From Deltaproteobacteria bacterium UBA2409 (GTDB taxonomy: Bacteria > Bdellovibrionota_C > UBA2361 > DDRT01), in the NCBI GenBank assembly GCA_002343185.1, contig DDRT01000001.1:400215-464214 (forward strand): a DNA stretch of 64,000 nucleotides. The letters run 5' to 3'. Made by a program: the position numbers and the translations under genes. Each line of letters begins with the position of its first letter. Positions within the stretch are counted from its first letter, which is position 1. Shown here piece by piece: positions 6,934 to 62,729 of the stretch. The notes beneath the pieces are model-generated. The model did no database searches. It had not been told where the DNA came from and saw only the letters and a program-made list of their open reading frames with translations.

Positions 6934-6950
6934 AAAGAAGTCTAGTACTA

Positions 6951-7063
6951 GTCTGGTCAGTCTTTCTTGTCCCCCGTAGCTTCAGCGGTGGGGGAAGACT
7001 GACCTTAGCCTTAAGGACTGGCTAAAGCCAGTCCAGACATAGATTAAAACCTGACCAGGCAGG
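6951..7063. repeat. Family-2 palindromic intergenic element (MITE/REP-like) with terminal inverted repeats GTCTGGTCAG … CTGACCAGGC.
   Basis: It contains the hairpins GGTCAGTCTT…AAGACTGACC and GGACTGGCTAAAGCCAGTCC plus the shared core CTTCAGCG. Related copies are at 51648-51739 and 35773-35858. It lies between convergent genes. Confidence 0.6.
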
Positions 7064-8650: not shown

Positions 8651-8735
8651 TTAATTTTATTCAGTTTTTAAACAATACAACTTGCGAGCAGCCTGTAACG
8701 AGCAACTTAGAGGCCAGTTGTGGTACAAGCTATAT

Positions 8736-9830
8736 GTGCGAATAGTTCATCTGGCAGATATTCATATAGGTTATAGAAAATACGCCAAAACTAATGCCCA
8801 AGGGATAAATGAACGAGAGGCAGATGTATCGGCCTCATTTAGAGAGGCTTGTGAAAGGATAGTTTTTTTAAACCCTGATCTTATTGTAATAGCAGGTGAT
8901 CTATTTCATACAGTAAGGCCATCGAATGCAAACCTTAGCTTTGTTTTTAGAGAATTAAAAAAGCTAACATCAAGAATAAAAGCACCAGTCGTAATTATAG
9001 CAGGAAATCATGAAACTCCTAAAAGAAACGATACTGGCTCCCCCTTATTACTTCTTAGAGAGATAGATAATGTATTTGTTGCAGAATCGAATTTAGAGTG
9101 GTTTACATTCTCTGACTTTGCTGTATGTGCACTTCCCCATGCAGCAGTAGGAACGGTTCAGGCGCACGAACTTAGAGCTAAAGACTCTTACAAGCGAAAT
9201 ATTCTGGTCTCCCATCTTCAGACAGGAGAAAGCTGGCTAAGTGATTTAGGGGGAGAAGAAAGACTTTTAAGTTCCTTAAATATTGGAGAGTGGGACTATG
9301 TTGCCTTAGGACATGTTCATTCGATGAAACAGGTTGCCTATAATGTTTTCTATTCAGGATCGCTCGAGCATACATCACTAAATATCTGGGCCGAGAATGA
9401 TTTAGCAAAAGGTTTTATTGAGTATGATCTTGATGAAAAAACCTGGAGGTTCCATGAGCTGAGCTCCCCAAGAGAAATTTTGGTCTTACCAACTATTGAT
9501 GTAACCGGGAAAAGTGTTGCAGAAACCCAAAGTGAAATCGTTGAGGCTTTATCTGTTAAAACTCTAAAAGGTAAGCTTGTAAAACTTGTGGTAAAAGGAA
9601 TAGAGCGAGAAGTTCTTCGTTCCTTAAACCATAAAGAGCTTAGACAATTTAGAGCAGAAGCCCTGCATTTACTTTTAGAATTTATTCCAGTTGGCAAAGT
9701 TGAAAGAGCAGCAGCAACTCCAGTTGGCAAACTTGAAGATGAGCTTTATAAGTTTTGTAAAAGCGAGCCACTAAAACTCCTATTTGAAAGATACTTTAAA
9801 GAGCTATCAAAAGAAGACGAGCTAAGATGA
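8736..9830 (+). CDS. sbcD: Exonuclease SbcD / Mre11-family nuclease subunit.
   Basis: Calcineurin-like phosphoesterase motifs: (V/M)RIVHLADIHIG, IAGDLFH, GNHE, GHVH. The track start (TTG 8682) is probably too far upstream. A GTG at about 8736 gives the canonical MRIVHLADIH N-terminus. Confidence 0.8.
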   Translation: MRIVHLADIHIGYRKYAKTNAQGINEREADVSASFREACERIVFLNPDLIVIAGDLFHTVRPSNANLSFVFRELKKLTSRIKAPVVIIAGNHETPKRNDTGSPLLLLREIDNVFVAESNLEWFTFSDFAVCALPHAAVGTVQAHELRAKDSYKRNILVSHLQTGESWLSDLGGEERLLSSLNIGEWDYVALGHVHSMKQVAYNVFYSGSLEHTSLNIWAENDLAKGFIEYDLDEKTWRFHELSSPREILVLPTIDVTGKSVAETQSEIVEALSVKTLKGKLVKLVVKGIEREVLRSLNHKELRQFRAEALHLLLEFIPVGKVERAAATPVGKLEDELYKFCKSEPLKLLFERYFKELSKEDELR

Positions 9831-11836
9831 AGCTTATTAAACTTGAACTTAAAAATTTCAGACAGCACAAAAATACAATACTAACTCTAAAAGATGGAGT
9901 TACAGGAATTCTTGGCCAAAATGGCTCAGGAAAGTCCTCATTAGTTGAGGCTATTTCGTTTTCACTCTACGGATCTAAATCAATCAGAGGAACGCTTGAT
10001 GAGCTTAAATCAAGAGACGAGCCAGAAGGTGTACTTAATGCAGCCCTTACTTTTGAGATCGATTCTACAGTTTATAGAGTTGAGAGAAGTCTTTCAGATG
10101 CCAAGTTTTTTGTTGGAGGAAAATTAGAAGTTAAAGGCTCAAGAGATGTAACTTCTAAAGTAGAGCATATCATAGGAATGAACTATGATGAGTTTGTTTC
10201 AACCTTTTATACAGAACAAAAAGGTTTAGAGTTCTTAAGTAGAAAAAAAGGTGGAGCAGAAAGAGAAAGATTTATAATGCGCCTTCTTGGCTATGATAAG
10301 GTAGAAAAAATTCAGGAAAAACTAAGAGACCAAAAACGTAATCTCAAATCAATGATCTCTTCACTAGAATTTGTTGACTCCTCTGAAGAAGACTTAAAGA
10401 GTGAGCTCAAAAATGAAGAGGAGATCTTAGAAGTACTTAAAAAACAGGAGAAAGGGCTTTCTATTAAGCTAAATGATGTCACTAAAGAGCAAGAGGAAGA
10501 GAAAAAAGCTCTTGAGAGAATTAGTAGTGGTAGAGAGGAGTTTTTAAAGCTTGATAAAGAGCGAAAAAGGCTTGAAGGTGTTTTAGATGAGCAAAAAAGG
10601 GCTCTTAGTAACTCAAAAATTGAAAACTTAAGAGCCTCAGAAGAGATAACTCAAGAACTTAATCAAGTCTCGAAGTTACTGGGAATAGGCGAAAAGGAAC
10701 TTTTAGATCTTGTTAAGAGAGTTTCAACAAATAAAGCTCAGCTTGAGTTAAAAAAGAATGAGAGGGACTCTAAAAGAAAAGCTCTGTTCGAAAGAAAAAA
10801 ATCAATTCTTTCAATTTCTAAGATAGAAGAGAGGTGTCCAACCTGTGGACAGAGCTTTGAAAATCTAGCAGATGCAATTTTGCACCTTGAGCAGGAAGAG
10901 AAAGTTATCGAGCAGATTATAATTGATGATTCTATAGTTAAAGAAGCCGAAAGCCTTCACAAACAAAAAAAGAAAGAGCTAGATACACTTAGATTGAAGG
11001 AAGCAACTCTTAAAACAGAGCTTCAATCGGCTCAAGAGTCAGAGAGGCTAAAAGAGATTAAAGAGAAAGCCGAACTTAGGATTAAAGAAACTAAGGGTTT
11101 TATAATTGAAATTGAAGGGAACCTTAAAAAATTAACATACTCTGAAGAAAAGTATCTCTCACAAAGAACAAGGTTAGAAGTTGTAACCTCGATCCTAACC
11201 AATTTAAGAATGGAACGATTAAAAGTTGAAGGAGACATTAAGGAGAGTCTTGGAAAAATCAATAAAATTGAAGAGATCTTAAAAAGACTTGTAGAGCAGG
11301 TTCAGATAAGAAAGTCTGGCCGAGAGGAGATGGCGCTTCTTGAGTCTGGAGATACAGTACTTTCTGAGTTTAGAAGCTACTTAACTTCAAGTATTAAACC
11401 TAGACTTTGTGAGCTTACATCTGAGTTTCTTTATGAATTAACCGATGCTCGTTATAGAGAGGCAATATTCTCAGAGGACTTTACCCCACAGATAGTCGAT
11501 GATGGAGAGGTTCTAACTGTAATGAGTGGTGGGGAGGAAGATATTCTTCATCTAAGTGTAAGGCTCGCACTATCGCAGCTTCTTGCAGAAAGAGCCGGAA
11601 GAGAGTTTTCATTATTGATTTTAGATGAGGTATTTGGCTCGCTTGATGAATTAAGAAGAAGTAATTTATTAGTTCTTCTTTCGGGACTTACAAACAGGTT
11701 TGAGCAGATATTAGTTATTTCTCACTTTGAAGATGTAAAAGATGCAGTAGATCACGTTGTTTTAATTCAAGTCGATGAAAAAACTGGTTCTAGTTTGGTT
11801 AGCTCAGCAGAGCTTGGAGTGGTGGTAAATATTTAA
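9827..11836 (+). CDS. sbcC: SbcC/Rad50-family ATPase, short 669-aa form.
   Basis: N-terminal Walker A GQNGSGKSS, central coiled coil with a CPTCGQ zinc hook, and a C-terminal signature/Walker B (LSGGEEDILHLSVRLAL…LLILDEVFGSLD). The start overlaps the sbcD stop by 4 nt. Confidence 0.75.
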   Translation: MKLIKLELKNFRQHKNTILTLKDGVTGILGQNGSGKSSLVEAISFSLYGSKSIRGTLDELKSRDEPEGVLNAALTFEIDSTVYRVERSLSDAKFFVGGKLEVKGSRDVTSKVEHIIGMNYDEFVSTFYTEQKGLEFLSRKKGGAERERFIMRLLGYDKVEKIQEKLRDQKRNLKSMISSLEFVDSSEEDLKSELKNEEEILEVLKKQEKGLSIKLNDVTKEQEEEKKALERISSGREEFLKLDKERKRLEGVLDEQKRALSNSKIENLRASEEITQELNQVSKLLGIGEKELLDLVKRVSTNKAQLELKKNERDSKRKALFERKKSILSISKIEERCPTCGQSFENLADAILHLEQEEKVIEQIIIDDSIVKEAESLHKQKKKELDTLRLKEATLKTELQSAQESERLKEIKEKAELRIKETKGFIIEIEGNLKKLTYSEEKYLSQRTRLEVVTSILTNLRMERLKVEGDIKESLGKINKIEEILKRLVEQVQIRKSGREEMALLESGDTVLSEFRSYLTSSIKPRLCELTSEFLYELTDARYREAIFSEDFTPQIVDDGEVLTVMSGGEEDILHLSVRLALSQLLAERAGREFSLLILDEVFGSLDELRRSNLLVLLSGLTNRFEQILVISHFEDVKDAVDHVVLIQVDEKTGSSLVSSAELGVVVNI

Positions 11837-11850
11837 GGCTGCTAGCATTT

Positions 11851-11882
11851 GTCTGGTCAGGCCTTCCGGCCTGACCCCCAAG
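11851..11882. repeat. Family-1 GC-rich palindromic unit (REP-like): GTCTGGTCAGGCC-TTCC-GGCCTGACCCCCAAG.
   Basis: Perfect hairpin GGTCAGGCC/GGCCTGACC. Same family as 25918, 30104, 35711, 41830 and 49657. It sits after the sbcC stop between convergent genes. Confidence 0.7.
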
Positions 11883-24258: not shown

Positions 24259-25917
24259 GTGGATAACTTAATAAAATTATCGGCACCAGCCGAGTATCAT
24301 CTATCTGTGTATGGTCCCGATGGTAGAATCTTTCGGAATCCATATCCTGCAGATGATTGTATATTAGAGAAAGACCACCAATATTATGCTGAGGCACGTA
24401 GAGCCGCATCATTTTATAAAGCTGCTCAGAGTAAGGCCATTGAAGGAATCAAGAAGATTCGAGGAACAATTTTTGGGGCAATTCCAAGTAGTGCAACAAT
24501 CGATAAAGTTGAGTCAAAAGAGTTTTTAGAAAACGTTATTAAAGAGGCAATTGAAAAAAATAAGGACAGGATCATAAATCTATTATCAGGAATAGACGAG
24601 ATTCAAGCGGATGATCTTACTTCCTTTGCAGCGCGAGTACTTCAGCTTGCCTTTTATGATATTAATCCTCAGCGAAAATTAAGGGTAAGAGTTGGGCGAG
24701 AACTAAGAGAGGAGCTCTTAGCGCACAGAGAAAATTATAAAGACAACGTTGGAGGGCTCAGCACTTTTTTAGGAGCGTTCCTGTCAAGGCTAGGTTTTAG
24801 AGCTAGGTGCTTTATATCGACTTCTTCTCACCATGATCTAAAGCAGGTATTTGAATCGATGCCTGGAGTTGAATTTGTTCAATCAGGAAGGGTAGTTGAT
24901 CCAAAAAATGTAACTCTTGACCGAGATGAACCAGGAAATATCGTCTGTAAAACAGAGTCGATAAATTTCTTAAATTTTTTCAGTGTGGAGGATCTAAGAC
25001 AGATCCCAGAACCTTTAAATGGCTCAACGCTTTCTGTCGATATAGTTGTTTCTAGAGATGAAGGAATTCCGAGTATTGATGATTGCTCGCGCGAGTTCTT
25101 AGAGGAGCTCTCGAAAGATATACCAGTCTATTTTCTTTCATCAGTCAACAAAGCTAGAACAGCAGAGGAGTTAAATAATTTTTTTGATAATATTAATGGG
25201 ATTCACTCAAGATTTTCCTGGGCATTTTCTTCTTTTATTCATTGGGATACTTTTGGAGCAGGTGTTCCACGGTTTAGAGAGAGGATCACCACTTTCTCTC
25301 TTAATACCGCTGAACTTCTAGATATAGTTAGAAAATTTGATACATGGTTCCCCTCTCTTCCTTGCTCAGTATCTAACAAATCTGAGATCAAAGAGCTTTT
25401 TACACCTCTCTGCGAAGGTGAGCCACATATTCAAAGCTCCGAGTGGATGGTTAATGGTGTCAGAGCCTTAGAGGCTTTATTCGGAAAAGAGGTAAATATC
25501 GTCCTTAGGGGTCACCATATTCATATTGCTAGTTATGCTAGCGCAGACAGATTTACAGAAGAAGAATGTGAACATTTAAGAGATATAAATATGTTCTCAC
25601 GAGCACTTGCTGCTCAGAAGGTTTTCTTTAAAGATGGACTTCCAAAATCTATCGATGAAGTTGGAATAATTGACTTTCCACTTACAGATGATGCGATTCA
25701 TTCATTTACAAGAGCAGCCAGACTCTTTGGTTATGAGGGGGAATTAAGGGAGAAATATTGGGTTAAAACAGATGAAGCTAGGCTAATAGTTTTAATTCCA
25801 ACCATGCCTTTTCTTGTAAGAAGTGGAACTGCTGGAGCAGGGGATAGTATGGACCTAGGTAGAGTTCTAGCAACTCAAGCTCTCCTCGGCGATAGGGTGG
25901 ATGTTAGGTTGATCTAG
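24259..25917 (+). CDS. Hypothetical protein (552 aa) with ribokinase-superfamily-like motifs. Possible sugar/nucleoside kinase related to ADP-dependent kinases.
   Basis: A GG-containing N-proximal motif (DNVGGLSTFLGAFLSRLG) and a C-terminal anion-hole-like GTAGAGDSMDLGRVLA, reminiscent of the GAGD motif of the PfkB/ADP-dependent kinase fold. It has a GTG start 28 nt after the B12 subunit stop. This call is tentative. Confidence 0.3.
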   Translation: MDNLIKLSAPAEYHLSVYGPDGRIFRNPYPADDCILEKDHQYYAEARRAASFYKAAQSKAIEGIKKIRGTIFGAIPSSATIDKVESKEFLENVIKEAIEKNKDRIINLLSGIDEIQADDLTSFAARVLQLAFYDINPQRKLRVRVGRELREELLAHRENYKDNVGGLSTFLGAFLSRLGFRARCFISTSSHHDLKQVFESMPGVEFVQSGRVVDPKNVTLDRDEPGNIVCKTESINFLNFFSVEDLRQIPEPLNGSTLSVDIVVSRDEGIPSIDDCSREFLEELSKDIPVYFLSSVNKARTAEELNNFFDNINGIHSRFSWAFSSFIHWDTFGAGVPRFRERITTFSLNTAELLDIVRKFDTWFPSLPCSVSNKSEIKELFTPLCEGEPHIQSSEWMVNGVRALEALFGKEVNIVLRGHHIHIASYASADRFTEEECEHLRDINMFSRALAAQKVFFKDGLPKSIDEVGIIDFPLTDDAIHSFTRAARLFGYEGELREKYWVKTDEARLIVLIPTMPFLVRSGTAGAGDSMDLGRVLATQALLGDRVDVRLI

Positions 25918-25983
25918 TGGGGGTCAGGCCGGGAGGCCTGACCAGGCAACTGCTAGCTTAGGCCTCCCGGCCTGACCCCCAAG
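25918..25983. repeat. Family-1 palindromic element, inverted dimer: GGGGGTCAGGCCGGGAGGCCTGACCAGG … AGGCCTCCCGGCCTGACCCCCAAG.
   Basis: Two hairpin units in inverted orientation form a roughly 65-bp super-palindrome immediately after the 552-aa ORF stop. Confidence 0.75.
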
Positions 25984-30062: not shown

Positions 30063-30103
30063 GGTTGGGTTTTTTTAGGAAACTTCCCTCTCGCTGCTAT
30101 TTA

Positions 30104-30153
30104 CTTGGGGGTCAGGCCGGAAGGCCTGACCAGGCAAGGACTAGACTGGTCAG
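30104..30153. repeat. Family-1 palindromic element (one full unit plus a degenerate inverted partner).
   Basis: CTTGGGGGTCAGGCCGGAAGGCCTGACCAGG … CTGGTCAGGCTCCCCAAG. It lies between convergent genes. Confidence 0.7.
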
Positions 30154-30172
30154 GCTCCCCAAGTACTAACGA

Positions 30173-33855: not shown

Positions 33856-35711
33856 ACGACTATCTACTAGATGAAGAAGGTTATCAGGAACTTTATGAGA
33901 GATCCGTCAGGGATCCAGAAAATTTCTGGTCAGAGCAGGCTAGTTTGTTTTTAAGCTGGTTCAAGCCTTGGGAAAATGTTCTTAGATGGGATTATAAAAA
34001 AGGTCTTATTAAGTGGTTTGAGGGTGGAAAATTAAATGTTTGTTACAATTGTGTAGACAGGCATTTACCTAAAAGGGCCAATCAAGTTGCTATTCTTTGG
34101 GAGGGAAATGAACCTGGCGAAAATCGCTCAATCACTTATTTAGAGCTTAGTAAACTTGTTCAGAGATTTTCGAACGTTCTAAAAGATCACGGGGTTAAGA
34201 GAGGTGATCCAGTAATAATTTACATGCCAATGGTTCCTGAAGCAGCAATGGCAATGCTAGCTTGTGCCAGGATTGGCGCGGTGCATTCTGTGGTGTTTGC
34301 AGGGTTTTCTGCAGAGGCACTTAAAGATAGAATTTCAGATTCTGGAGCAAAACTTGTTATCACTGCCAACGAAGGACTTAGAGGAGATAAGGTAATTCCT
34401 TTAAAAAAGACTGTCGATGAGGCCAACCCCAAAAGAGTTTTAGTTTATAAAAGAACAAATTCTCCATGTGAAATGAAAGAAGGCAGGGATTTTTGGCTTG
34501 ATCTTGATTCCGCAAAAGATGGTTGTATGCCTGAAGAAATGGAGTCAGAGGATCCTTTATTTATTCTTTACACATCCGGCTCTACAGGTAAACCAAAAGG
34601 AGTGCTCCACACTCAGGCAGGTTATTTACTTTATACGGCGATGACCTTTAGATATGTGTTTGACTATAAGGATAGAGATATCCACTTTTGTGCTGCCGAT
34701 GTAGGTTGGATTACTGGACATAGCTATGTCGTGTATGGCCCCCTGGCTAATGGTGCAACGACTGTGATGTTTGAATCTATTCCAACGTATCCAGATCCAG
34801 GCCGATATTGGGATACAATAGAAAGGTTAAAAGCTAACACATTCTACACTGCTCCAACTGCTATAAGAGCGATTGCAAAAGAAGATAATAGCTTTGTAAC
34901 AAGGTACGATAGATCCTCTTTGAAAGTATTAGGCTCAGTCGGAGAGCCAATAAATAAAGACGCCTGGGAGTGGTATTCAGATGTTGTTGGTGAAGGGAGA
35001 TGTCCTGTGGTTGATACATGGTGGCAAACAGAGACGGGTGGAATATTAATTAGCCCATTACCTGGAGCGATTAAAACTAAACCTGGCTCTGCTACAAAGC
35101 CATTTTTCGGTATTAGACCAGCTTTACTTAAAGAAAATGGAGATCAGGTTTTAAACCCTGGTGAGGCGGGACGTCTTTGCATTGAATATCCATGGCCAGG
35201 TCAGGCAAGAACCGTTTGGGGAGATCATGAGAGATTTGTCTCTACTTATTTTTCTAGTTTCCCAGGATTTTATTTTACAGGTGATGCCGCAAAATTTGAT
35301 GAAGATGGTTATTTCTGGATCTCAGGACGAGTGGATGATGTTTTGAATGTGTCTGGTCATAGAATTGGAACAGCCGAGATTGAAAGTGCGATCGTTGCTT
35401 CTGGGATTGTTGCTGAAGCTGCAGTAGTTGGATTTCCACATGCAGTTAAAGGGGAGGGGATCTGTGCTTTTTGTATTCCAAAAGGAGAAGGAGACATTAA
35501 AGTTGTTATAGATTCCGTTGGAAAATTTATAGGAGGCTTTGCAAAACCTGATAAGGTAGTTTTTGTTTCAGGGCTACCTAAAACTAGATCGGGTAAGATT
35601 ATGAGGAGAATTTTGAGAAAGATTGCTTCTGGTGAAACTGAATCTTTAGGAGACACTTCAACTTTAGCTGATCCGTCAGTTGTTGAGGAATTACTCTGCA
35701 ATGTAAGTTAG
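33852..35711 (+). CDS. acs: Acetyl-CoA synthetase (AMP-forming acyl-CoA synthetase).
   Basis: AMP-binding signature [12 protein letters not shown], and later [13 protein letters not shown] and C-terminal [10 protein letters not shown]. Length 619 aa. Substrate (acetate versus propionate) is not resolvable by eye. Confidence 0.85.
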
Positions 35712-35886
35712 GGGTCAGGCTAGTTGAGGGTCAGGGCGAGAGGATAATGCCTGAGCAGGTTTTTAGACTTTAGGGACTGGTTTCCTACTTCGCCAACTTG
35801 TCCTTCGAAGCTTCAGCGAAGTAGGAGGCTATATAGGACAAGAAAGCCAGTCCAGACAAATTCTAGACTCTCCCGGCCTGACCCCC
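35711..35886. repeat. Composite repeat: a family-2 element (35773-35858) nested inside a split family-1 unit (GGGGTCAGGC … CTCCCGGCCTGACCCCC).
   Basis: Family-1 half-sites flank a core (GGGACTGG…CTTCGAAGCTTCAGCGAAGTAGGAGG…CCAGTCCAGACA) that matches the 6951 and 51648 elements. Confidence 0.65.
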
Positions 35887-35900
35887 ACAAGTAAGCGAAA

Positions 35901-36457: not shown

Positions 36458-36760
36458 TCACCCCTTTCTTGATTGAATAAGTTTATAGAGATGAGCTGCT
36501 AGTTTGTCTAATAGCTCAATAGTGTCTGTATTTGGATAGCTTAAGTCTAAAATAGCCTGACACTCTCTAAGAGAACCAAAAGCTATAGAGTAGAATCTTC
36601 TTTGATCAGGCCTTGTTTCTCTTCCTACCCCTTCAGCCAGATTAAGCACAATGCTAGAGGCAGCCCTTTTTAGCTGGTCAGCTAGATGTCTTGGAAGTGG
36701 CATAGCGGTTGCTTTTCGGTAAAACAAAACGGCGAGATTGTAAGTTCTAAAGTTTTTCAT
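36458..36760 (-). CDS. Four-helix-bundle protein ('23S rRNA intervening sequence protein' family; Avd-like).
   Basis: The 100-aa protein MKNFRTYNLAV…LNLAEG…FYSIAFGSLRECQ matches the conserved pattern of the TIGR02436/PF05635 family. Confidence 0.7.
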   Translation of the reverse strand: MKNFRTYNLAVLFYRKATAMPLPRHLADQLKRAASSIVLNLAEGVGRETRPDQRRFYSIAFGSLRECQAILDLSYPNTDTIELLDKLAAHLYKLIQSRKG

Positions 36761-36770
36761 AGTTTATAGA

Positions 36771-36821
36771 CTCCTTTTCAAAAAAAGTTCCTGCCCGGAT
36801 GAGAACTTTTTTTGAAAAGGA
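36771..36821. promoter_or_regulatory. Perfect 51-bp inverted repeat (20-bp arms, 11/12-nt loop) between the divergent four-helix-bundle genes. The outer arms are the two Shine-Dalgarno sequences.
   Basis: CTCCTTTTCAAAAAAAGTTC-ctgcccggatga-GAACTTTTTTTGAAAAGGAG. AAAAGGAG is 10-11 nt upstream of each start codon. Confidence 0.6.
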
Positions 36822-36833
36822 GATTCCTTGTTT

Positions 36834-37133
36834 ATGAAAAACTTTAGAACTTACAATTTATCCGTTTCATTCTACCGAAGTGCAACAGCAATGCCACTTC
36901 CAAGCCCTCTTAAAGACCAGCTTAAAAGGGCTGCTCTGTCAGTGCCATTAAATCTGGCAGAAGGTAGAGGGAGAAGAACCAGAGCTGATCAGATAAGATT
37001 CTTCAGTATAGCGTTTGGATCAGTCAGAGAGTGCCAGGCTCTATTTGACATAGCTGATCTCAAAGATACAGATACTTATAGACTATTAGATAGCCTTGCA
37101 GCATCACTATATAAGCTAATCAAGAAGGGGTGA
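36834..37133 (+). CDS. Four-helix-bundle protein (paralog of 36458-36760, same family).
   Basis: MKNFRTYNLSV…LNLAEGRGRRT…FFSIAFGSVRECQ is roughly 60% identical to the divergent neighbour. The start is taken at the second Met after the SD. Confidence 0.7.
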   Translation: MKNFRTYNLSVSFYRSATAMPLPSPLKDQLKRAALSVPLNLAEGRGRRTRADQIRFFSIAFGSVRECQALFDIADLKDTDTYRLLDSLAASLYKLIKKG

Positions 37134-41829: not shown

Positions 41830-41934
41830 CGGGGGTCAGGCCGCCCTATTGTTGCTTCATCCGCTGGCGCGGATGATAGAACCCTGACCAGGCAAGCATT
41901 ACGTCTGGTCAGGCCTTCCGGCCTGACCCCCAAG
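41830..41934. repeat. Family-1 palindromic element, dimer with an extra internal hairpin (CATCCGCTGGCGCGGATG).
   Basis: GGGGGTCAGGCC…CCTGACCAGG … CTGGTCAGGCCTTCCGGCCTGACCCCCAAG. It overlaps the last ~9 codons of the convergent 376-aa ORF. Confidence 0.7.
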
Positions 41935-43039
41935 TAGAACTCGTTGCACCAAGAAAATTTTCAAGAACAACTAGCTCACTAGAATGTTGTATTGCCTTAG
42001 AACCTGTCACTAGGTTCTCACCCTCTTTAATAATTGTTCCATCTTTTCTGATAAAACATGGCATTAGAGGTGGCAGTTTTCTGAGTTCATCCAGTATTGC
42101 AATCATAATGGAATCATCAGGATCTTTTAGTTTTAATGCCTTTCTTCGGAGTTCTAAAACATAATAAAGACCCTCTTGGAAAAGTTCTCGTATTGAGTTG
42201 CTTGAACTAGCTTTTTCAAGAGCAATGTTAATGCAGCCTACTATAAACTCTTCACCGATTTTTATCTGTTCAATCTCATAAAAGGGCAGATTAAAATGTA
42301 CGACCAAAGCATTTAAAATAAGTGCCAATTCTTCTCGGTCATCATCCTTAAAGTTAACAAGGAGACCTGCACTAGCTTTAAGTTCAGATTTTGGTTCTTT
42401 AAATTTATCAATTTTTTTCGGGCTTATAACTTCGGATGCAAACTCAAGATCTGGGATTCCTTCCGCAGCGAGCCTTTTTAGTTTGTCCTGGTAGCTATCC
42501 TCTTCTAATGCACTGGGGGTTGAAACTGTTGGTATACTCAAAACTTGATAAAAAACTTCAGGACTTGTTTCAAATAGAAGAGCTAAAATTCGACCTAAGG
42601 CAAAAAACTTATCAGGGTCTTCATGAGAGATTAAAATCCATGTGTGTCCCTGATCTGGTGTGTAAAAGCCTGGTGCCGGCGGAGCATCCGTAGGTTCTTC
42701 GTTCGTTTCTACAGTAACGTAAGCCGATAGGATTAAAGACAGAACTTTAAGATCAATAACTTTCAGTATTTTTTGGAGGATTGAAAGCCCACCTTCATCA
42801 TCGTCTAAGAGTAGCCATGAAAAGAAATTTTCTTCGCTAACTTTATCTTTATTCCATAAATCTAAGTCCAAAAAAGTTCTGGTCTGCTCCAGAGTTGCGA
42901 GCATTATAAGCTCTACTGAGCTCTCAAGCCCTTGATCTTTTATGCAATAATATAGTGTCTGAGCAGGTAGCGATTTTACAACCACCTCTGGAGCTTCAGC
43001 TGAATAGATAGTGGTTATTAGATCTTTTGATTTTATCAT
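41909..43039 (-). CDS. Hypothetical protein (376 aa), translationally coupled downstream of infC.
   Basis: The start overlaps the infC stop by 1 nt. No recognisable motif. The C-terminal codons lie inside the repeat element. Confidence 0.45.
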   Translation of the reverse strand: MIKSKDLITTIYSAEAPEVVVKSLPAQTLYYCIKDQGLESSVELIMLATLEQTRTFLDLDLWNKDKVSEENFFSWLLLDDDEGGLSILQKILKVIDLKVLSLILSAYVTVETNEEPTDAPPAPGFYTPDQGHTWILISHEDPDKFFALGRILALLFETSPEVFYQVLSIPTVSTPSALEEDSYQDKLKRLAAEGIPDLEFASEVISPKKIDKFKEPKSELKASAGLLVNFKDDDREELALILNALVVHFNLPFYEIEQIKIGEEFIVGCINIALEKASSSNSIRELFQEGLYYVLELRRKALKLKDPDDSIMIAILDELRKLPPLMPCFIRKDGTIIKEGENLVTGSKAIQHSSELVVLENFLGATSSTWGSGRKA

Positions 43040-47470: not shown

Positions 47471-49657
47471 ATGTATAGAGTATTAGTAATTTTAATTATT
47501 TTAGCCTCTTCATTGATTGCAGAGGAGAAGAAAGACGAAAAGAAGTCAACAAATAGAATTTTGGTCTTATCTGATAAGGATCTTCTAAAAGTTGCTGGAG
47601 GTTCTGCAACACTGCTTGATGAGGAAGATCTTAAAGAAACAAAAGGAAGTGGTGATGATGTTCATCAGACACTAAAAAAAGTTCCTGGTGTTAACATCCT
47701 TGAAGAAGAAGGATATGGGCTAAGACCAAACATTAGTTTTAGAGGAACTCCACCTGAAAGAAGCAGAACAGTAACAATTATGGAAGATGGAGTTTTAAAG
47801 TCACCAGCTCCTTATACAGCACCATCAGCATACATTTTTCCAACATTTGGCCGAATGGAAGGACTTGAAATTCTAAAAGGGGCCTCTCAAATTAAGTATG
47901 GCCCTCAAACAATTGGCGGAAGTTTGAATATGCTCTCTGCAAAGATCCCTGAGGATCAGAGAATTTTTGCTCGCATTGAAGGTGGCGAAGATAGCTTCTT
48001 AAATGCTCATGCAAAATTTGGACAAGGATATGAAAACGGAGGATTCCTGCTTCAAGCATACGACACTCAAACTGATGGATTTAAAAAATTAGATAGCGGC
48101 GGTGACACAGGATTTGATCTAACTGACTTAATGGGTAAGTTTCAGATTAATACAGATAAGGCTGCTGATGTTTATCAGGAGCTTGAGTTTAAAGTTAACG
48201 ATATGACTCAAGATTCAGATGAGACATATCTTGGTCTTACAGAGAATGATTTTAGAGATGATCCATATAGACGTTATTCAGCAACTCAAAACGATAAGCT
48301 AGATATAAGTCAAGAATCATATCAATTAAGGCACTATATCCAGCCAAATGAATTAGTTGATCTAACAACTGTACTTTACAGAACAAAGTCTGCTCGTAAC
48401 TGGTACAAGTTAGATAAGGTTGGTGGAATAGGGCTCTCTGATATTATGAAGGATCCTTTAACTTATGCAGATCCATATTCTTGGATAACAGGAATGACTA
48501 GTCCTGATGATTCACTAGTAATTCGTGGAAATAACAGAAGATACGACTCAAAAGGCATACAATCTGTTCTTGGTGTTGAATTTGATACCGGATCAGTCGG
48601 CCATACAGTTGAGTTTGGTGCTAGGTATCACGAAGACGAAGAAGATCGTTTTCAAGCTGAGGACTCCTATAGAATGGAAAATGGCACTATGATCAGAACA
48701 AAACTTGGTGCTCCTGGTTCGCAGGAAAATCGTATTGGTGATGCACAGGCATGGGCATTCTTTCTTCAAGATACTCTTAAGCTAGATAAACTAACCCTGA
48801 CCCCTGGAGTTCGTTATGAACTTATCGACTACAGAAACCGTGATTTTGGAAAGCTTGATCCAACAAGAAGTGGATCAGCACTTACGACTTCAGAATCAGA
48901 AGTTGACGTAGTAGTGCCTGGGCTTGGCGCAACTTATGTTTTGACTGATTCTGTTTTACTTGTTGGTGGTGTTCATAAAGGGTTTGCCCCTCCAGGACCA
49001 CAGGCAACAAGTGATATTAAAGAGGAGGAAAGTGTAAATTATGAGGCAGGCCTTCGTTATGATAATCAGAGCTTATCTGGATCTTTAATCGGGTTTTTGA
49101 ACGATTATGACAATCTCTTAGGTGCTGATACTCTTGCTGCTGGTGGAACAGGTTCTGGAAATCTGTTTAACGCAGGTGAAGCAAGAAGCTACGGTGTTGA
49201 GACAGGCATTGGATACGATATTGGTAAATCTGCTAAACTTTCAGTAGGGCTGCCAGTATATGTTAGCTATACCTACACAAATGCTGAATTTAGAGATTCC
49301 TTTAATAGCTCACTTTTTGGCTCAGTTACTTCAGGAGATAAGCTGCCCTATATAGCTGAGAATCTTGTTTCAGTAGGAGTTGGGGTTGATTATCAGAAGT
49401 TCAAAGTTAGACTTGATGGACATTTCACTGATGAGATGCCTGTTATAGCTGGTCAAAGTGGACTTAGAACTGATGAGAAAACTGATGACAATTGGGTGTT
49501 TGACTTAGGTGCTTCATACGAAGTAGCTGAAGGAACAAGAGTTTTCTCAAAAGTAAGAAATCTCTTCGATGAAGAGTATGTTGCAGCTCGTCGACCTGCT
49601 GGAGCAAGACCAGGGCTTCCAACAACTGTGTTTGCAGGGATTGAGATAGACCTGTAG
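47471..49657 (+). CDS. TonB-dependent outer-membrane receptor.
   Basis: Signal peptide, plug domain (…VPGVNILEEEGYGLRPNISFRG…), and a long β-barrel region rich in alternating aromatic/Gly residues. Length 728 aa. Confidence 0.7.
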   Translation: MYRVLVILIILASSLIAEEKKDEKKSTNRILVLSDKDLLKVAGGSATLLDEEDLKETKGSGDDVHQTLKKVPGVNILEEEGYGLRPNISFRGTPPERSRTVTIMEDGVLKSPAPYTAPSAYIFPTFGRMEGLEILKGASQIKYGPQTIGGSLNMLSAKIPEDQRIFARIEGGEDSFLNAHAKFGQGYENGGFLLQAYDTQTDGFKKLDSGGDTGFDLTDLMGKFQINTDKAADVYQELEFKVNDMTQDSDETYLGLTENDFRDDPYRRYSATQNDKLDISQESYQLRHYIQPNELVDLTTVLYRTKSARNWYKLDKVGGIGLSDIMKDPLTYADPYSWITGMTSPDDSLVIRGNNRRYDSKGIQSVLGVEFDTGSVGHTVEFGARYHEDEEDRFQAEDSYRMENGTMIRTKLGAPGSQENRIGDAQAWAFFLQDTLKLDKLTLTPGVRYELIDYRNRDFGKLDPTRSGSALTTSESEVDVVVPGLGATYVLTDSVLLVGGVHKGFAPPGPQATSDIKEEESVNYEAGLRYDNQSLSGSLIGFLNDYDNLLGADTLAAGGTGSGNLFNAGEARSYGVETGIGYDIGKSAKLSVGLPVYVSYTYTNAEFRDSFNSSLFGSVTSGDKLPYIAENLVSVGVGVDYQKFKVRLDGHFTDEMPVIAGQSGLRTDEKTDDNWVFDLGASYEVAEGTRVFSKVRNLFDEEYVAARRPAGARPGLPTTVFAGIEIDL

Positions 49658-49756
49658 GTAAGCTGACTTGGGGGTCAGGCCGGGAGGCCTGACCAGACGT
49701 AGTGCTTGACTGGTCAGGCCTCCCGGCCTGACCCCCAAGTAGCCTGACCCCCAAAG
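49657..49756. repeat. Family-1 palindromic element, perfect inverted dimer plus an extra half-site.
   Basis: CTTGGGGGTCAGGCCGGGAGGCCTGACCAG-acgtagtgcttga-CTGGTCAGGCCTCCCGGCCTGACCCCCAAG-tag-CCTGACCCCCAAAG. It lies between convergent genes. Confidence 0.8.
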
Positions 49757-51569: not shown

Positions 51570-53674
51570 CTTCTTTTAAACCACCAGTTGAAAATAGATT
51601 TTAGGTTGAACAGAGATCTAAATGTTTCAAATTTTGAAAGATTGAGACCTGTCTGGACTGGCTTTCCTATCCTACGTAGTTTTAGCGAAGTAGGAAGCCT
51701 GTCCTTAGTAAAGGTCAGTCTAAAGACTGACCAGACAGGATTTTTGTTTTTATACTTTTCTTCATTCAATAATTTTATAAACTCTTCGAGATCGGAACCA
51801 TGAGATTTACGAACTCTTTTAATAAAGTTTAAGCGAGTTTCCCCATAGTTTCGTTTAAATCCTATGTCCATAAGTTTAGCAAAGACTCCAATTTTAAGAA
51901 GGGATGGGAATAGTAAATACCCCTTCAGTAATAAGATCTTAGATAAAACAACAAAGAAGAATAATGTCGCAAACATGATTACTAATGCTGGCTTTAGCCA
52001 GGCAAATGAAAACGAAGTACTTTCGGAGTCTTTTTTAGCTGGAAGTTCAGGAACTAGCTCTTCAGCAGGGTTAACAAGATTCATAAGCTCTTCAAGTAAA
52101 CCTTGATCGACCTCAGTATCAGCATGGCTTTCAACCTGAAGGGGCTGTGTATCAAAGGCTATCCACCCATAGTCTTGAAAATAAACTTCGGCCCATGCGT
52201 GTCTGTCGCTCATTCTAAGTAATATATGTCCATCTTTAGCTTGGCTTAAGTCAGTAAGGTATCCAGTAGCGATTCTAGATGGAATTCCAATTGCACGAAG
52301 CAGATAAACAGTTGCATGGGCAATATGAACGCAGTACCCACGACCATCCCCAAAAAGATAAGGTGCAACTGGATCGTCCGATGCAGGATGGTTTGGAGTA
52401 AGAGTATAAATTGTAAACTGTGCAAGGTAATCCACGATTCTTTTAATAGAATCAAACGGAGTAGGGGAGTCAGCAGTAATTTTTTTTGCTAGCTCGTGAT
52501 ACCTGGGATCTGTGTGTGCTGCTAAGTAGTTTGCACGTTTATTGTTGTCCCAAAGTGGATCTCCGACTGGTGTGTTTCTTAGAGTTTCAAGCTTTAAGCC
52601 TAACGAAAATGAGAGTGCTCTATAGGCGCCACCTTTAAATCTTCCAGGATTAGGATTTTTGAGCGGGGTTAAAAGTTTTGGATAATCAATCGCAAATGGA
52701 TTTTTATGATCTGCTAAAAGATAGATCTCTTGGGTTAACTCAGATCTACTTATCACTTCCTTTCTAACTTGAGAAAATGAAACGCTTGGCGAATCTCGGC
52801 TTATATCATCGTCAATGCCACTTAAAACAAGCTCTTTACCATTATACTTTGAAAGTGCTGACTCTCTTAGATAAAGCATAGGCGATGTAGGGTTCATCGT
52901 ATAATCACTTTCAAGCCTTACAAGTCCTGCTGGTTGATTTGTGCTGCCTAAAGCTGATTCAAATGTTAGTGGGCTTAACCCTTCTTCTGAGCCTTGGCCA
53001 ACACCGTTACTAAAAAAGGCTTCTCCTTTTTCCTGATAGTATCTTGAGATTCCAAAGAATGAGAGATAGCCGATAAGTAGAAAAATAAATGTTGATAAGA
53101 AGATTCCAAATATTGAAAGTCGCTTGGAAATAGCAGCTCTTTGGTCATTAAATTGTCTAACAGAAAGCGCTCCATATATGACAGCTAGTAATGCCACGAT
53201 AACTCCAAATGCTGAAAATGTTGTTAGTGGAGAAACTCCTAACTGCCAGGAGAGATCATTTATAATTTTCGGCATATCAAGTTGTAGATTTCTGTGAGTA
53301 GCTAAAGAGCCAACTACAACCGTCAGTATCAGTCCAAGCTCTACTAAAAATGCAGCTCTATATTTTTTAACTGCCCAAGTTAGAATGAAAGTTAAAAAGA
53401 AGATAAACATTACTGCTTGAAGATGTAAGAATATGGAGTATGACTTTAAACTTGAATTTCCAAAGAGAGCTAAGATTAGGCCAACCAAGTTGATTGATAG
53501 GGCTCCTCCGATTGTTGTTATTAACAAAACACCAAGTAATTTTAGGTTAGAGGCTCTGCTGCCAACTATAACTCCACCTAAGATTCCAATCGATAGAATG
53601 GCAGGGTGAGTCCCGAATGGAAGCACAAAGTCCACTGCAACTATTGCCATTGTTAGAAGGAGAAAGCGCATCAC
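51563..53674 (-). CDS. Transglutaminase-like membrane protein (DUF3488 / TGase core architecture).
   Basis: Multi-TM N-terminus, and a TGase catalytic triad context (GRGYCVHIAHATVYLLRAIGIP … DRHAWAEVYF … WIAFD). The last ~60 codons run through the family-2 repeat at 51648-51739. Confidence 0.7.
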   Translation of the reverse strand: MMRFLLLTMAIVAVDFVLPFGTHPAILSIGILGGVIVGSRASNLKLLGVLLITTIGGALSINLVGLILALFGNSSLKSYSIFLHLQAVMFIFFLTFILTWAVKKYRAAFLVELGLILTVVVGSLATHRNLQLDMPKIINDLSWQLGVSPLTTFSAFGVIVALLAVIYGALSVRQFNDQRAAISKRLSIFGIFLSTFIFLLIGYLSFFGISRYYQEKGEAFFSNGVGQGSEEGLSPLTFESALGSTNQPAGLVRLESDYTMNPTSPMLYLRESALSKYNGKELVLSGIDDDISRDSPSVSFSQVRKEVISRSELTQEIYLLADHKNPFAIDYPKLLTPLKNPNPGRFKGGAYRALSFSLGLKLETLRNTPVGDPLWDNNKRANYLAAHTDPRYHELAKKITADSPTPFDSIKRIVDYLAQFTIYTLTPNHPASDDPVAPYLFGDGRGYCVHIAHATVYLLRAIGIPSRIATGYLTDLSQAKDGHILLRMSDRHAWAEVYFQDYGWIAFDTQPLQVESHADTEVDQGLLEELMNLVNPAEELVPELPAKKDSESTSFSFAWLKPALVIMFATLFFFVVLSKILLLKGYLLFPSLLKIGVFAKLMDIGFKRNYGETRLNFIKRVRKSHGSDLEEFIKLLNEEKYKNKNPVWSVFRLTFTKDRLPTSLKLRRIGKPVQTGLNLSKFETFRSLFNLKSIFNWWFKRRW
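51648..51739. repeat. Family-2 palindromic element with perfect terminal inverted repeats CCTGTCTGG … CCAGACAGG. It is embedded in the 3' end of the transglutaminase-like ORF.
   Basis: It shares the GGACTGG…AGCGAAGTAGGA…GGTCAGTCT…AGACTGACC architecture with the 6951 and 35773 elements. Confidence 0.65.
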
Positions 53675-62495: not shown

Positions 62496-62729
62496 TTACT
62501 CAGGGCAAAGCTCAGGATCGCAATTTGATTCACATTTAAGACATAAATCAGAGCCTGAAAAAGTTTCACGAACATTTTCTTCTCTTCTTTGAAAAGCACC
62601 AAATAAAAACAAAGCTGCTAATGTCATCACTACAAGAATAAGTACAAATGCTAAAACTGATTCTGGAATAACAGCGCCGAGTTGTTTATCCGACTGGAGT
62701 GGCTTTATTGTCCCCCGTAGTTTTTTCAC
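62496..62729 (-). CDS. Small single-pass membrane protein (77 aa). Candidate Flp-family pilin-like protein with a Cys-rich C-terminal tail.
   Basis: Leader MKKLRGTIKPLQSDKQLG, then AVIPESVLAFVLILVVMTLAALFLFGAF (Gly before a hydrophobic helix, with Glu at +5 as in Flp/type-IV pilins), then CLKCESNCDPELC. 4-nt ATGA overlap with the upstream 409-aa gene. Confidence 0.3.
   Translation of the reverse strand: MKKLRGTIKPLQSDKQLGAVIPESVLAFVLILVVMTLAALFLFGAFQRREENVRETFSGSDLCLKCESNCDPELCPE

What the first reader, a model, noticed from the sequence alone, without database searches (positions are those of the whole stretch)
49657..49756. Family-1 GC-rich palindromic repeats (REP/BIME-like) scattered through the window, often as inverted dimers forming ~75-bp super-palindromes
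The motif CTTGGGGGTCAGGCC-GGGA-GGCCTGACCAG(G) recurs at 11851, 25918, 30104, 35711, 41830 and 49657. Several loci carry two units in inverted orientation: unit, short spacer, inverted unit ending CCCCCAAG. Each forms a hairpin, and the dimer could extrude as a cruciform. The units are GC-rich islands in an AT-richer genome and sit almost exclusively between convergent gene ends. This is the behaviour of REP/BIME-type elements, which act as terminators, mRNA stabilisers and RAYT substrates. No RAYT/IS200-like transposase is in the window, so the mobilising activity, if any, lies elsewhere. Seven or more copies in 64 kb implies hundreds genome-wide.
Basis: seen in the sequence. Interest (0 to 1): 0.6.

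Follow-up and report, generated by a model that had tools for sequence, protein, structure and literature searches.

The report
REP/REPIN-like palindromic repeats between genes
The GC-rich palindromes are a real, many-copy family of short hairpin repeats, mostly inverted pairs wedged just after gene ends, in an uncultured sludge bacterium; this is an ordinary known kind of bacterial repeat (REP/REPIN/BIME-like), but the enzyme that spreads it was not found.

Summary
A 30-nt oriented unit, CTTGGGGGTCAGGCC-GGRA-GGCCTGACCAG, occurs at six intergenic sites in the window. Chance expects none. The same unit occurs at 57 further loci of what is probably the same organism, in metagenome assemblies.

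- **Element:** the usual form is a ~78-nt inverted doublet that folds into one long hairpin (-81 kcal/mol as RNA, -47 as DNA).
- **Mosaics:** doublets combine with a second covarying hairpin module and a ~100-nt third repeat family, giving BIME-like mosaics.
- **Position:** 93% of classifiable sites lie downstream of a gene end, at a median of 25 nt from the stop codon. Some units supply the stop codon.
- **Insertion signature:** there are no target-site duplications, no U-tracts and no GTAG/CGTC tag.
- **Relatives:** relatives at 75-77% nucleotide identity have empty orthologous sites. An 83% relative has different elements at the same sites.
- **Assemblies:** short-read contigs break at these repeats.
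- **Transposase:** no RAYT/IS200-type transposase was found in about 0.5 Mb sampled, so that link stays untested.

Verdict: this is a lineage-specific REP/REPIN-like repeat family, a new member of a known kind. Interest is low to moderate.

The parts
49664..49741 (.). The focal element. It is a near-perfect family-1 doublet: S unit 49667-49696 (+), 13-nt spacer, S unit 49710-49739 (-), with flanking TGA/TA bases. It lies between the stop codon of a TonB-dependent receptor gene (49657) and the stop codon of a TPR gene (49758).
   Evidence: Sequence. Inverted repeat I6. It folds as a single hairpin of about 31 bp: -81.4 kcal/mol as RNA and -47 as DNA, z about -12.
49743..49756 (-). An extra partial 'head' copy (CCTGACCCCCAAAG) directly repeated 3 nt outside the doublet.
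   Evidence: By eye, the same kind of partial head duplication appears at roughly a dozen or more of the 68 sites listed; no formal count was made.
41831..41891 (+). A long-loop ('L') family-1 unit. GGGGGTCAGGCC and CCTGACCAG enclose a 40-nt module that contains the H2 hairpin CATCCGC-TGGC-GCGGATG (41858-41875).
   Evidence: Relative to the commonest variant CGTCTGC..GCAGACG, this stem carries two compensatory changes.
41905..41934 (-). A short-loop ('S') family-1 unit that partners the L unit as a heterodimer. It supplies the last 7 codons (WGSGRKA) and the TGA stop of the DUF6178 gene (41909-43039, minus strand).
   Evidence: The orthologue in relative L097 ends ...QATQIKQSKR* and has a 7-nt intergenic gap with no element.
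35708..35761 (+). Degenerate family-1 material: a partial head (TTAGGGGTCAGGC) plus a decayed unit, forming the left flank of a nested insertion.
   Evidence: (I11).
35762..35868 (.). A family-2 element (~100 nt) nested inside the family-1 doublet.
   Evidence: (D7, I7, I20). In relative L102 the orthologous Acs and OmpH genes overlap with no element between them.
35869..35892 (-). The right half of the interrupted family-1 doublet (CTCTCCCGGCCTGACCCCCACAAG).
30102..30165 (.). A family-1 doublet: full S unit 30104-30133 (+), 12-nt spacer, and an internally deleted partner 30146-30163 (CTGGTCAGGCTCCCCAAG). It lies between a TPR_21 gene and ilvA, which converge.
25916..25983 (.). A family-1 doublet with an 8-nt spacer and a degenerate second unit (GCTTAGGCC arm). 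It starts at the stop codon of the upstream 552-aa ORF, in a co-directional gene context.
   Evidence: (I16).
11838..11882 (-). A single S unit (11853-11882) with a spacer remnant (GCTGCTAGCATTTGT). It starts 2 nt after the sbcC-like stop codon and faces a convergent gene.
6939..7050 (.). A family-2 element (a separate ~100-nt structured repeat) between convergent genes. It shares the GTCTGGTCAG motif with family 1.
51648..51742 (.). A family-2 element.
   Evidence: z = -6.1.
62694..62723 (.). A partial family-2 copy.
   Evidence: (D6).

Best explanation
These are members of a lineage-specific family of REP-type palindromic repeats. The replicating form is most likely an inverted doublet of two 30-nt units, a REPIN-like element of about 78 nt.

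**Shown.**
- The unit has an unpaired G-rich head (CTTGGGGG), a 9-bp stem, a GGRA loop and a CCAG tail.
- Two units sit tail-to-tail around an RCA-NNN-GCTAGC-NNN-TGY spacer. The whole element is one long hairpin.
- The elements are dispersed at about one site per 10-12 kb.
- They lie almost always just downstream of stop codons.
- They carry no target-site duplication.
- They combine with a second covarying hairpin module and a third repeat family into BIME-like mosaics.
- They are absent from orthologous sites in related lineages.

**Inferred.**
- The elements spread as single-stranded hairpins through a trans-acting, structure-specific HUH/Y1-type enzyme. This would be a RAYT-like transposase or a functional analogue, encoded once elsewhere in the genome.
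- That mechanism leaves no duplication. It tolerates stem changes if pairing is kept.
- Insertions survive mainly in the dispensable space after gene ends.
- As parts of 3' UTRs, the very stable hairpins probably impede 3' exonucleases and read-through between convergent genes. This is a by-product or a co-opted role, not the reason the elements exist.
For: **Non-random, oriented repeat.**

**Wider occurrence.** A metagenome scan with the asymmetric pattern returned 57 further loci (445 kb, 39.9% GC). All come from two assemblies that are 100% identical where they overlap. Together with the window they hold 98 units at 68 sites, 29 of them clean doublets. About three quarters of units carry conserved partner and spacer sequence.

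**Structure.**
- The doublet folds as one long hairpin with z about -12.
- Of the 22 doublets with the standard 18-nt spacer, the loops of the two halves are complementary in 16. About 9 would be expected from the loop frequencies (my count).

**Position.**
- Sites split 29 convergent, 22 co-directional and 4 divergent. The remaining intergenic regions split 51, 237 and 70 (chi-square p about 1e-10).
- The median distance to the stop codon is 25 nt. In 8 of 80 gene ends the stop lies inside the element.
- One gene's C-terminus was rewritten by a unit.

**Insertion signature.** No direct-repeat flanks were found at any boundary offset.

**Nesting and mosaics.**
- Nested and composite arrangements are common.
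- The H2 module has 41 copies. 99% of stem cells are paired and 5 of 7 pairs show two-sided changes.

**Comparative evidence.**
- Orthologous sites are empty in lineages at 75-77% nucleotide identity (L097, L102, L112).
- In an 83% lineage the same sites hold variant or family-2 elements.

**Assemblies.** Short-read contigs end inside the repeats.

**Literature.** The architecture matches published REP/REPIN descriptions (PMC3337134, PMC3733652).
Against: - No RAYT/IS200-like ORF was found in the window, in 8 kb of extra flank, or in 445 kb of repeat-bearing loci. The tests were motif regexes and phmmer with E. coli RayT plus an IS200 TnpA sequence recalled from memory. Pfam scans of 10 ORFs at five paired-site loci found only housekeeping domains.
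- The unit lacks the GTAG tag typical of RAYT-associated REPs (PMC3733652).
- No closely related empty site (above 95% identity) was available, so recent movement and exact insertion boundaries are not shown.
- The loci were selected by the repeat pattern, so copy statistics are biased.
- RNA-level function is untested.
- Gene contexts rest on a crude ORF caller.
Confidence: 0.75

Rival explanations
1. The doublets are MITEs derived from a DDE-transposase insertion sequence. Their terminal inverted repeats would be the two units, and the parent IS would move them by cut-and-paste.
For: The whole doublet is a terminal inverted repeat. About half of the heads are preceded by TA or A, which loosely recalls the TA targets of IS630/Tc1-type MITEs. 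A different MITE-like insertion with a ~12-bp duplication exists in locus L087, so DDE elements are active in this genome.
Against: No consistent direct-repeat flank was found. At most 4 of 29 doublets show a match of 3 bp or more at any boundary offset. TA is not obligatory. No multi-copy sequence longer than 500 nt, meaning no candidate parent IS, occurs among 445 kb of loci. Single units, half units and 54-nt tandem periods are hard to produce by cut-and-paste of a TIR element.
Confidence: 0.06
2. The hairpins are primarily host-selected functional sites. They would act as bidirectional terminators, mRNA 3'-end stabilisers or protein-binding sites, spread and homogenised by recombination or gene conversion rather than by transposition.
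For: There is strong enrichment downstream of genes and between convergent genes, with few sites upstream of genes. The hairpins are extremely stable. Pairing is maintained by compensatory changes in the H2 module. REPs are known to be co-opted for such roles (PMC3337134, PMC3733652).
Against: There is no U-tract after the hairpins, and the terminator scan does not pick them up beyond chance. Orthologous sites in relatives are empty, or carry an ordinary unrelated hairpin (L097 downstream of the receptor gene). Elements are nested within one another and intrude into coding 3' ends. Partial and decayed copies are common. These points fit proliferation followed by decay better than selected sites. 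This rival is compatible with secondary co-option under the main explanation.
Confidence: 0.12
3. The repeats are a chance pattern or an assembly artefact.
For: None beyond the generic risk that metagenome assemblers collapse or chimerise repeats. One Logan contig end does run into a different copy.
Against: Shuffles gave 0 matches. Independent JGI assemblies give identical sequence across the sites, and ENA assemblies carry dozens of further copies.
Confidence: 0.01

Closest known systems
REPINs (REP doublets forming hairpins) of Pseudomonas and enterobacteria, mobilised by RAYTs (Bertels & Rainey 2011; PMC3116915, PMC3337134)
   Same: - Two short palindromic units lie in inverted orientation around a short spacer, giving an element of about 80-90 nt that folds into one long hairpin.
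- There are tens to hundreds of copies.
- The copies are extragenic.
- Many singlets look like decayed doublets.
- There is no target duplication.
- Occupancy differs between related genomes.
   Different: - No RAYT was found in about 0.5 Mb sampled.
- The unit has no GTAG tag.
- Each unit's own stem is perfect, long (9 bp) and GC-rich, with a G5 head.
- The host appears to be an uncultured Bdellovibrionota/Oligoflexia-like bacterium, not a gamma-proteobacterium. This rests only on the names of 50-65% identical homologues.
BIMEs (bacterial interspersed mosaic elements) of E. coli and the REP dimers/clusters catalogued by Di Nocera et al. 2013 (PMC3733652)
   Same: - The mosaics are built from REP units in alternating orientation plus other conserved short motifs.
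- Heterodimers form between units with short and long loops.
- The spacers are structured.
- Clusters contain tandemly reiterated pieces.
- Location is mainly between co-directional and convergent ORFs, downstream of coding regions.
   Different: - The sequences are unrelated.
- The long-loop variant here contains a complete second hairpin module. That module also exists on its own and shows many compensatory stem variants.
- The GTAG/CGTC end tags that define the two published superfamilies are absent.
IS200/IS605-family and other HUH single-strand transposition systems
   Same: By inference only: hairpin-defined ends, no target duplication, tolerance of compensatory stem changes, and a conserved short sequence (CAAG/CTTG) at the element boundary that could be a cleavage site.
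   Different: No transposase gene was found associated with the elements. Cleavage sites were not determined. The resemblance of the CTTG/CAAG boundary to IS91-type targets comes from memory and was not tested.

Membership tests
REP (repetitive extragenic palindrome), generic | Short (20-40 bp) imperfect palindrome forming a stem-loop | tested here: met
   The 30-nt unit has a 9-bp stem and a 4-nt loop.
REP (repetitive extragenic palindrome), generic | High copy number, dispersed around the chromosome | tested here: met
   There are 6 sites in 64 kb. A further 57 loci lie on at least 15 contigs of two assemblies. Short-read contigs break at the copies.
REP (repetitive extragenic palindrome), generic | Extragenic, predominantly downstream of coding regions (convergent and co-directional gene pairs) | tested here: met
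   51 of 55 classifiable sites lie downstream of a gene end, p about 1e-10 against the background. The ORF calling was crude.
BIME-like mosaic | REP units in alternating orientation combined with other conserved motifs; heterodimers with different loop lengths; clusters | tested here: met
   S-S and S-L dimers, the H2 module, 54-nt tandem periods and nested family-2 elements are all present. The protein-binding features of E. coli BIMEs (IHF, gyrase) were not tested.
REPIN-RAYT system | Inverted REP doublet with a short spacer forming one long hairpin | tested here: met
   29 clean doublets, mostly with 18-nt spacers. Fold energies are -81.4 kcal/mol as RNA and -47 as DNA.
REPIN-RAYT system | A single-copy RAYT (Y1/HUH, PF01797) gene flanked by the same REPs | tested here: inconclusive
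   None was found in the window, in 8 kb of flank or in 445 kb of loci. Tests were motif regexes and phmmer with E. coli RayT and IS200 TnpA, plus Pfam on 10 ORFs at five loci that carry two repeat sites. Most of the genome could not be searched.
REPIN-RAYT system | Insertion without target-site duplication | tested here: met
   The test used the boundaries as defined here, since no empty site from a near-identical strain was available.
REPIN-RAYT system | Observed excision or transposition | not testable with these tools
   This needs population sequencing reads or experiments.
GTAG- or CGTC-tagged REP superfamilies (Di Nocera 2013) | Conserved unpaired GTAG or CGTC motif at one end of the stem-loop | tested here: not met
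   The position table of 94 units shows a CTTGGGGG head and a CCAG tail. The G needed to complete a GTAG is present in only 17 of 94 units. In the H2 module, CGTC is part of the paired stem and varies (CATC, CAAC, TGTC).
DDE-type MITE | Terminal inverted repeats plus a fixed-length target-site duplication; a parent IS with matching ends | tested here: not met
   There is no consistent duplication. No multi-copy sequence above 500 nt occurs in the sample.
Intrinsic (Rho-independent) terminator | GC-rich hairpin immediately followed by a U-tract | tested here: not met
   The flanks after the hairpin read AAGTA or are variable, and T-runs appear only occasionally. The scan in the 40-52 kb region does not call the intact elements and finds no excess over shuffles.

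The most novel reading that the evidence does not exclude
The genome may truly lack a RAYT. In that case this untagged three-module repeat system (family-1 units, the covarying H2 hairpin and family 2, which share the GTCTGGTCAG and CCCCC|G junctions) would be spread by a different, undescribed structure-specific enzyme in a Bdellovibrionota-like lineage. The half-unit stutters, 54-nt tandem periods and partial head duplications would then be footprints of its cleavage and rejoining chemistry.
Probability: 0.15. Interest if true: 0.55.

Novelty: new member of a known kind. Interest (0 to 1): 0.27.

Why it matters
**Modest value in itself.** The finding extends REP/REPIN-like mosaic repeats to an uncultured, low-GC lineage that is probably Bdellovibrionota/Oligoflexia-like.

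**Practical consequences.**
- The repeats explain why short-read assemblies of this organism fragment at gene ends.
- They flag annotation artefacts, such as stop codons and C-terminal tails supplied by repeats.

**What would raise the interest.**
- If a complete genome shows a cognate RAYT, this is a clean new REPIN-RAYT pair with an untagged REP.
- If it shows none, the family joins the CGTC-type REPs as evidence that some REP populations use another mobilising activity.

Tried and rejected
1. **Genome-contig scan.** I used the symmetric pattern GGGGTCAGGCCN4GGCCTGACC. One group is an Oxalobacteraceae/Pseudoduganella repeat with AACCGGTAA flanks; the rest are singleton hairpins.
2. **Organism name.** A literature search for the BioProject found nothing.
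3. **RAYT search.** Regex and phmmer searches were negative. Pfam scans of 10 ORFs at five loci carrying two repeat sites found only housekeeping domains.
4. **Walking along the 560-kb contig.** The look-up tool only accepts window proteins, so I gained 8 kb upstream. The look-up meant to extend the downstream side failed.
5. **Doublet orientation from the spacer.** I first thought spacer asymmetry gave the doublet a fixed orientation. The NNN triplets turned out to be simply variable, so I dropped the idea.
6. **Rfam and tRNA scans.** Both found nothing.
7. **Viral contig scan.** It returned 0 hits.
8. **Other kinds considered and rejected on anatomy.**
   - CRISPR arrays: the 'spacers' in the 54-nt periods are identical.
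   - Integron attC sites: these elements are scattered, not in arrays.
   - DNA uptake sequences: those are far shorter and denser.
Full report

Yes. At 49664-49741 the window reads TGA-CTTGGGGGTCAGGCCGGGAGGCCTGACCAG-ACGTAGTGCTTGA-CTGGTCAGGCCTCCCGGCCTGACCCCCAAG-TA. The core palindrome GGTCAGGCC-N4-GGCCTGACC occurs 7 times with at most 2 mismatches. None appeared in 100 dinucleotide-preserving shuffles. The 9-nt arm occurs 15 times against 0.21 expected.

The repeat finder and direct reading place copies at six sites:
- 11853-11882
- 25916-25983
- 30104-30163
- 35708-35892
- 41831-41934
- 49667-49739

The window is 39-40% GC and the unit is about 73% GC. Two JGI metagenome assemblies are 100% identical to the window over 22 kb, including two of the sites. 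The repeats are therefore not an assembly artefact.

**2. Anatomy**

The unit is oriented, not merely palindromic. It has a head CTTGGGGG, a stem GGTCAGGCC, a loop GGRA, the returning stem GGCCTGACC and a tail AG. A position table of 94 units shows the head, stem and tail nearly invariant. The loop reads GGRA relative to the head in 89 of 94 units. Conservation stops 1-2 nt outside the head.

Conservation continues about 30 nt beyond the tail in roughly three quarters of units. This is because the usual element is a tail-to-tail inverted doublet:
- Layout: unit, then the spacer RCA-NNN-GCTAGC-NNN-TGY (18 nt, sometimes 12-13), then an inverted unit.
- Fold of the focal doublet: one hairpin of about 31 bp, -81.4 kcal/mol as RNA and -47 as DNA, z about -12.
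- Other window sites are also strongly structured.
- Loop pairing: of the 22 doublets with the standard 18-nt spacer, 16 have complementary loops in the two halves. About 9 would be expected from the loop frequencies (my count). This fits the doublet being copied as a unit.

**3. Mosaic partners**

*The H2 module.* A second hairpin module has the form TTGCTTC, a 7-bp stem, a YNRC loop, the returning stem, then GAYAGAT. A structure-blind nhmmer search found 41 distinct copies in the sampled DNA. 99% of stem cells are paired. Five of seven pairs show changes on both sides (CG/UA, GC/AU, UA/AU and others), well above the shuffled and slid controls. One caveat applies: the seed sequences were chosen with perfect stems.

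H2 occurs in three settings:
- alone or in clusters;
- between the head of a family-1 unit and a following half unit, sometimes as 2-3 tandem 54-nt periods;
- inside the loop of a family-1 unit, producing a long-loop 'L' unit.

The window site 41831-41934 is such an L-S heterodimer. Its H2 stem, CATCCGC..GCGGATG, differs from the commonest variant by two compensatory changes.

*Family 2.* A third, ~100-nt structured repeat lies at 6939-7050, 51648-51742 and 62694-62723. A further copy is nested inside the family-1 doublet at 35708-35892. At least nine more copies occur elsewhere in the genome sample.

*Partial head copies.* By eye, roughly a dozen or more of the 68 sites carry a 13-14-nt partial head copy just outside a unit, as at 49743-49756. 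No formal count was made.

This is BIME-like mosaicism as described for E. coli and other REP families (PMC3733652).

**4. Copy number and specificity**

A metagenome scan with the asymmetric pattern GGGGGTCAGGCCN4GGCCTGACCAG returned 57 loci. All come from two ENA assemblies. These loci total 445 kb at 39.9% GC, are 100% identical where they overlap, and do not overlap the window.

With the window they hold 98 units at 68 sites. In the unselected 72 kb (the window plus 8 kb of flank) there is about one family-1 site per 12 kb. A genome of a few Mb would then carry a few hundred units.

Short-read (Logan) contigs of this organism start or end inside these repeats (L003 and L108 at both ends, L111 at one). 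Contigs of its sister lineage (L094, L095/96, L100) do the same. This is what a multi-copy repeat does to such assemblies.

The pattern is absent from viral contigs. My earlier symmetric scan of reference genomes only hit unrelated GC-rich palindromes.

**5. Position relative to genes**

I used a simple longest-ORF gene model. Of 55 classifiable sites:
- 29 lie between convergent genes;
- 22 lie between co-directional genes;
- 4 lie between divergent genes.

The remaining intergenic regions split 51, 237 and 70 (chi-square p about 1e-10). So 93% of sites lie downstream of at least one gene.

The median distance from a stop codon to the element is 25 nt. In 8 of 80 gene ends the stop codon lies inside the element.

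In the window, the DUF6178 gene ends ...WGSGRKA*, with those residues and the TGA stop read from the repeat unit. Its orthologue in a relative ends differently and abuts the neighbouring gene with a 7-nt gap.

The elements are not followed by U-tracts. The terminator scan does not call them.

**6. Comparative evidence**

| Lineage | Identity to the window | What was seen |
|---|---|---|
| L097/98 | 75-77% nt (receptor protein 82%) | 21 kb of synteny with no family-1, family-2 or H2 copy; both orthologous sites empty; an unrelated ordinary hairpin sits downstream of the receptor gene |
| L112/113 | 75-77% nt | no family-1, family-2 or H2 copy in 14-18 kb; DUF6178 site empty |
| L102 | about 77% nt (Acs protein 87%) | the Acs and OmpH genes overlap, whereas the window has a 190-nt composite element there |
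| L094, L100 | 83% nt | the same three sites are occupied by a divergent unit (GGTCAGG-TTTTCAA-CCTGACC) or by family-2/H2 material; contigs break there |

Occupancy and sequence type therefore change between related lineages. This argues for proliferation and turnover rather than conserved functional sites.

No pair of near-identical strains with filled and empty sites was available. Recent movement and exact boundaries are therefore not shown.

**7. Mechanism**

No direct-repeat flank of 3 bp or more is shared by more than 4 of 29 doublets at any boundary offset. No multi-copy sequence longer than 500 nt exists among the loci. These two results argue against a DDE-type MITE.

Three features fit the single-strand, hairpin-recognising HUH/Y1 chemistry proposed for REPINs and IS200/IS605 (PMC3337134):
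- the absence of duplications;
- dependence on structure, shown by compensatory stem changes;
- the doublet acting as the unit.

The defining partner was not found. No RAYT/IS200-like ORF appears in the window, in 8 kb of flank or in 445 kb of loci. The tests were motif regexes and phmmer with E. coli RayT (fetched) and IS200 TnpA. ORFs at loci carrying two repeat sites are housekeeping genes such as FBPase, a hybrid sensor kinase and YceI.

The unit also lacks the GTAG tag typical of RAYT-linked REPs, and it lacks the CGTC tag (PMC3733652). That paper notes that CGTC REPs have no known dedicated transposase, so REP families without an identified RAYT are already on record.

I estimate mobilisation by a RAYT-like enzyme encoded elsewhere at a little under even odds. 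The class assignment (a REP/REPIN/BIME-type interspersed palindromic repeat) I put at about 0.9.

**8. Source organism**

The sequence comes from a bioreactor sludge metagenome (record name). The same sequence is present in JGI, ENA, Logan and NCBI sources.

The nearest named homologues are MAGs labelled Bdellovibrionales, Oligoflexia or Deltaproteobacteria, at 50-65% identity.

**9. Verdict**

Three claims need correction:
- The convergent-gene preference is not exclusive genome-wide.
- Terminator or stabiliser function is untested.
- The RAYT link is untested.

This is a new, lineage-specific member of a well-known kind of element, with an attractive mosaic structure. Nothing so far falls outside known REP biology.

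Noticed in passing
window 6939-7050, 35762-35868, 51648-51742, 62694-62723: A second, ~100-nt structured repeat family (family 2; terminal hairpin GGACTGGCTnnAGCCAGTCC) shares the GTCTGGTCAG motif with family 1. At least nine more copies occur in the metagenome loci. Similar hairpins sit at contig ends of related lineages (L095/L096, L100), so this family seems older or wider than family 1.
   Followed up: partly
window 41843-41882; loci L037-L093: The H2 hairpin module (TTGCTTC, 7-bp stem, YNRC loop, returning stem, GAYAGAT) has 41 copies and at least 9 stem variants, all keeping pairing. 99% of cells are paired and 5 of 7 pairs carry compensatory changes. It stands alone, sits in clusters (L037 8614-8736), or sits inside or beside family-1 units.
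   Followed up: yes
window 36458-37133: Two divergently oriented ~100-aa paralogous genes of Pfam family PF05635 (23S rRNA intervening-sequence protein, a four-helix bundle) form a 102-nt inverted repeat that is 83% complementary. The pair is absent in relatives, where OmpH directly neighbours the HDOD gene (L103). Two assemblies break here (L106, L107). A similar pair is in L089.
   Followed up: partly
window 8682-11836: An sbcD-like (Metallophos) and sbcC-like (SMC_N/SbcC Walker B) gene pair ends 2 nt before a family-1 repeat remnant. SbcCD cleaves long DNA hairpins in E. coli (PMC3733652 discussion). Its coexistence with hundreds of ~31-bp perfect palindromes is worth a thought.
   Followed up: no
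window 41909-41934 (DUF6178 gene, 41909-43039, minus strand): The last seven codons (WGSGRKA) and the stop codon of this gene are encoded by the repeat unit. In the wider sample, 8 of 80 adjacent gene ends stop inside an element, six of them at the same in-unit TGA.
   Followed up: yes
L087 about 20-215 (minus-strand reading): A ~190-nt MITE-like insertion has terminal inverted repeats AATGCCACTTAC.../...GTAAGTGGCATT and a ~12-bp duplication (GATAGATCCTCCC / GACAGATCCTCCC). It sits inside an H2/family-1 composite, showing that a different, duplication-making transposon family is also present.
   Followed up: no
L037 9754-10170: A LAGLIDADG homing-endonuclease ORF (Pfam E = 1.5e-23) lies in a region dense with H2 hairpins. 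I did not examine the context; it could be an intron or an rRNA region.
   Followed up: no
L006, L009, L010, L013, L017, L021-L023, L030, L035 (Oxalobacteraceae MAG) and L012, L014, L019 (Pseudoduganella): A GC-rich betaproteobacterial repeat family has the same 11-nt arm as a perfect palindrome (GGGGTCAGGCC-CTWG-GGCCTGACCCC), usually between AACCGGTAA and TTACCGGTT flanks. It looks like an independent REP family that shares the core by chance or convergence.
   Followed up: partly
L112 16325-16471 and L113 12737-12883: In one related lineage the acetyl-CoA synthetase gene next to OmpH is reduced to a 48-aa C-terminal fragment. This is a gene loss at the locus where the window carries the composite repeat.
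   Followed up: no
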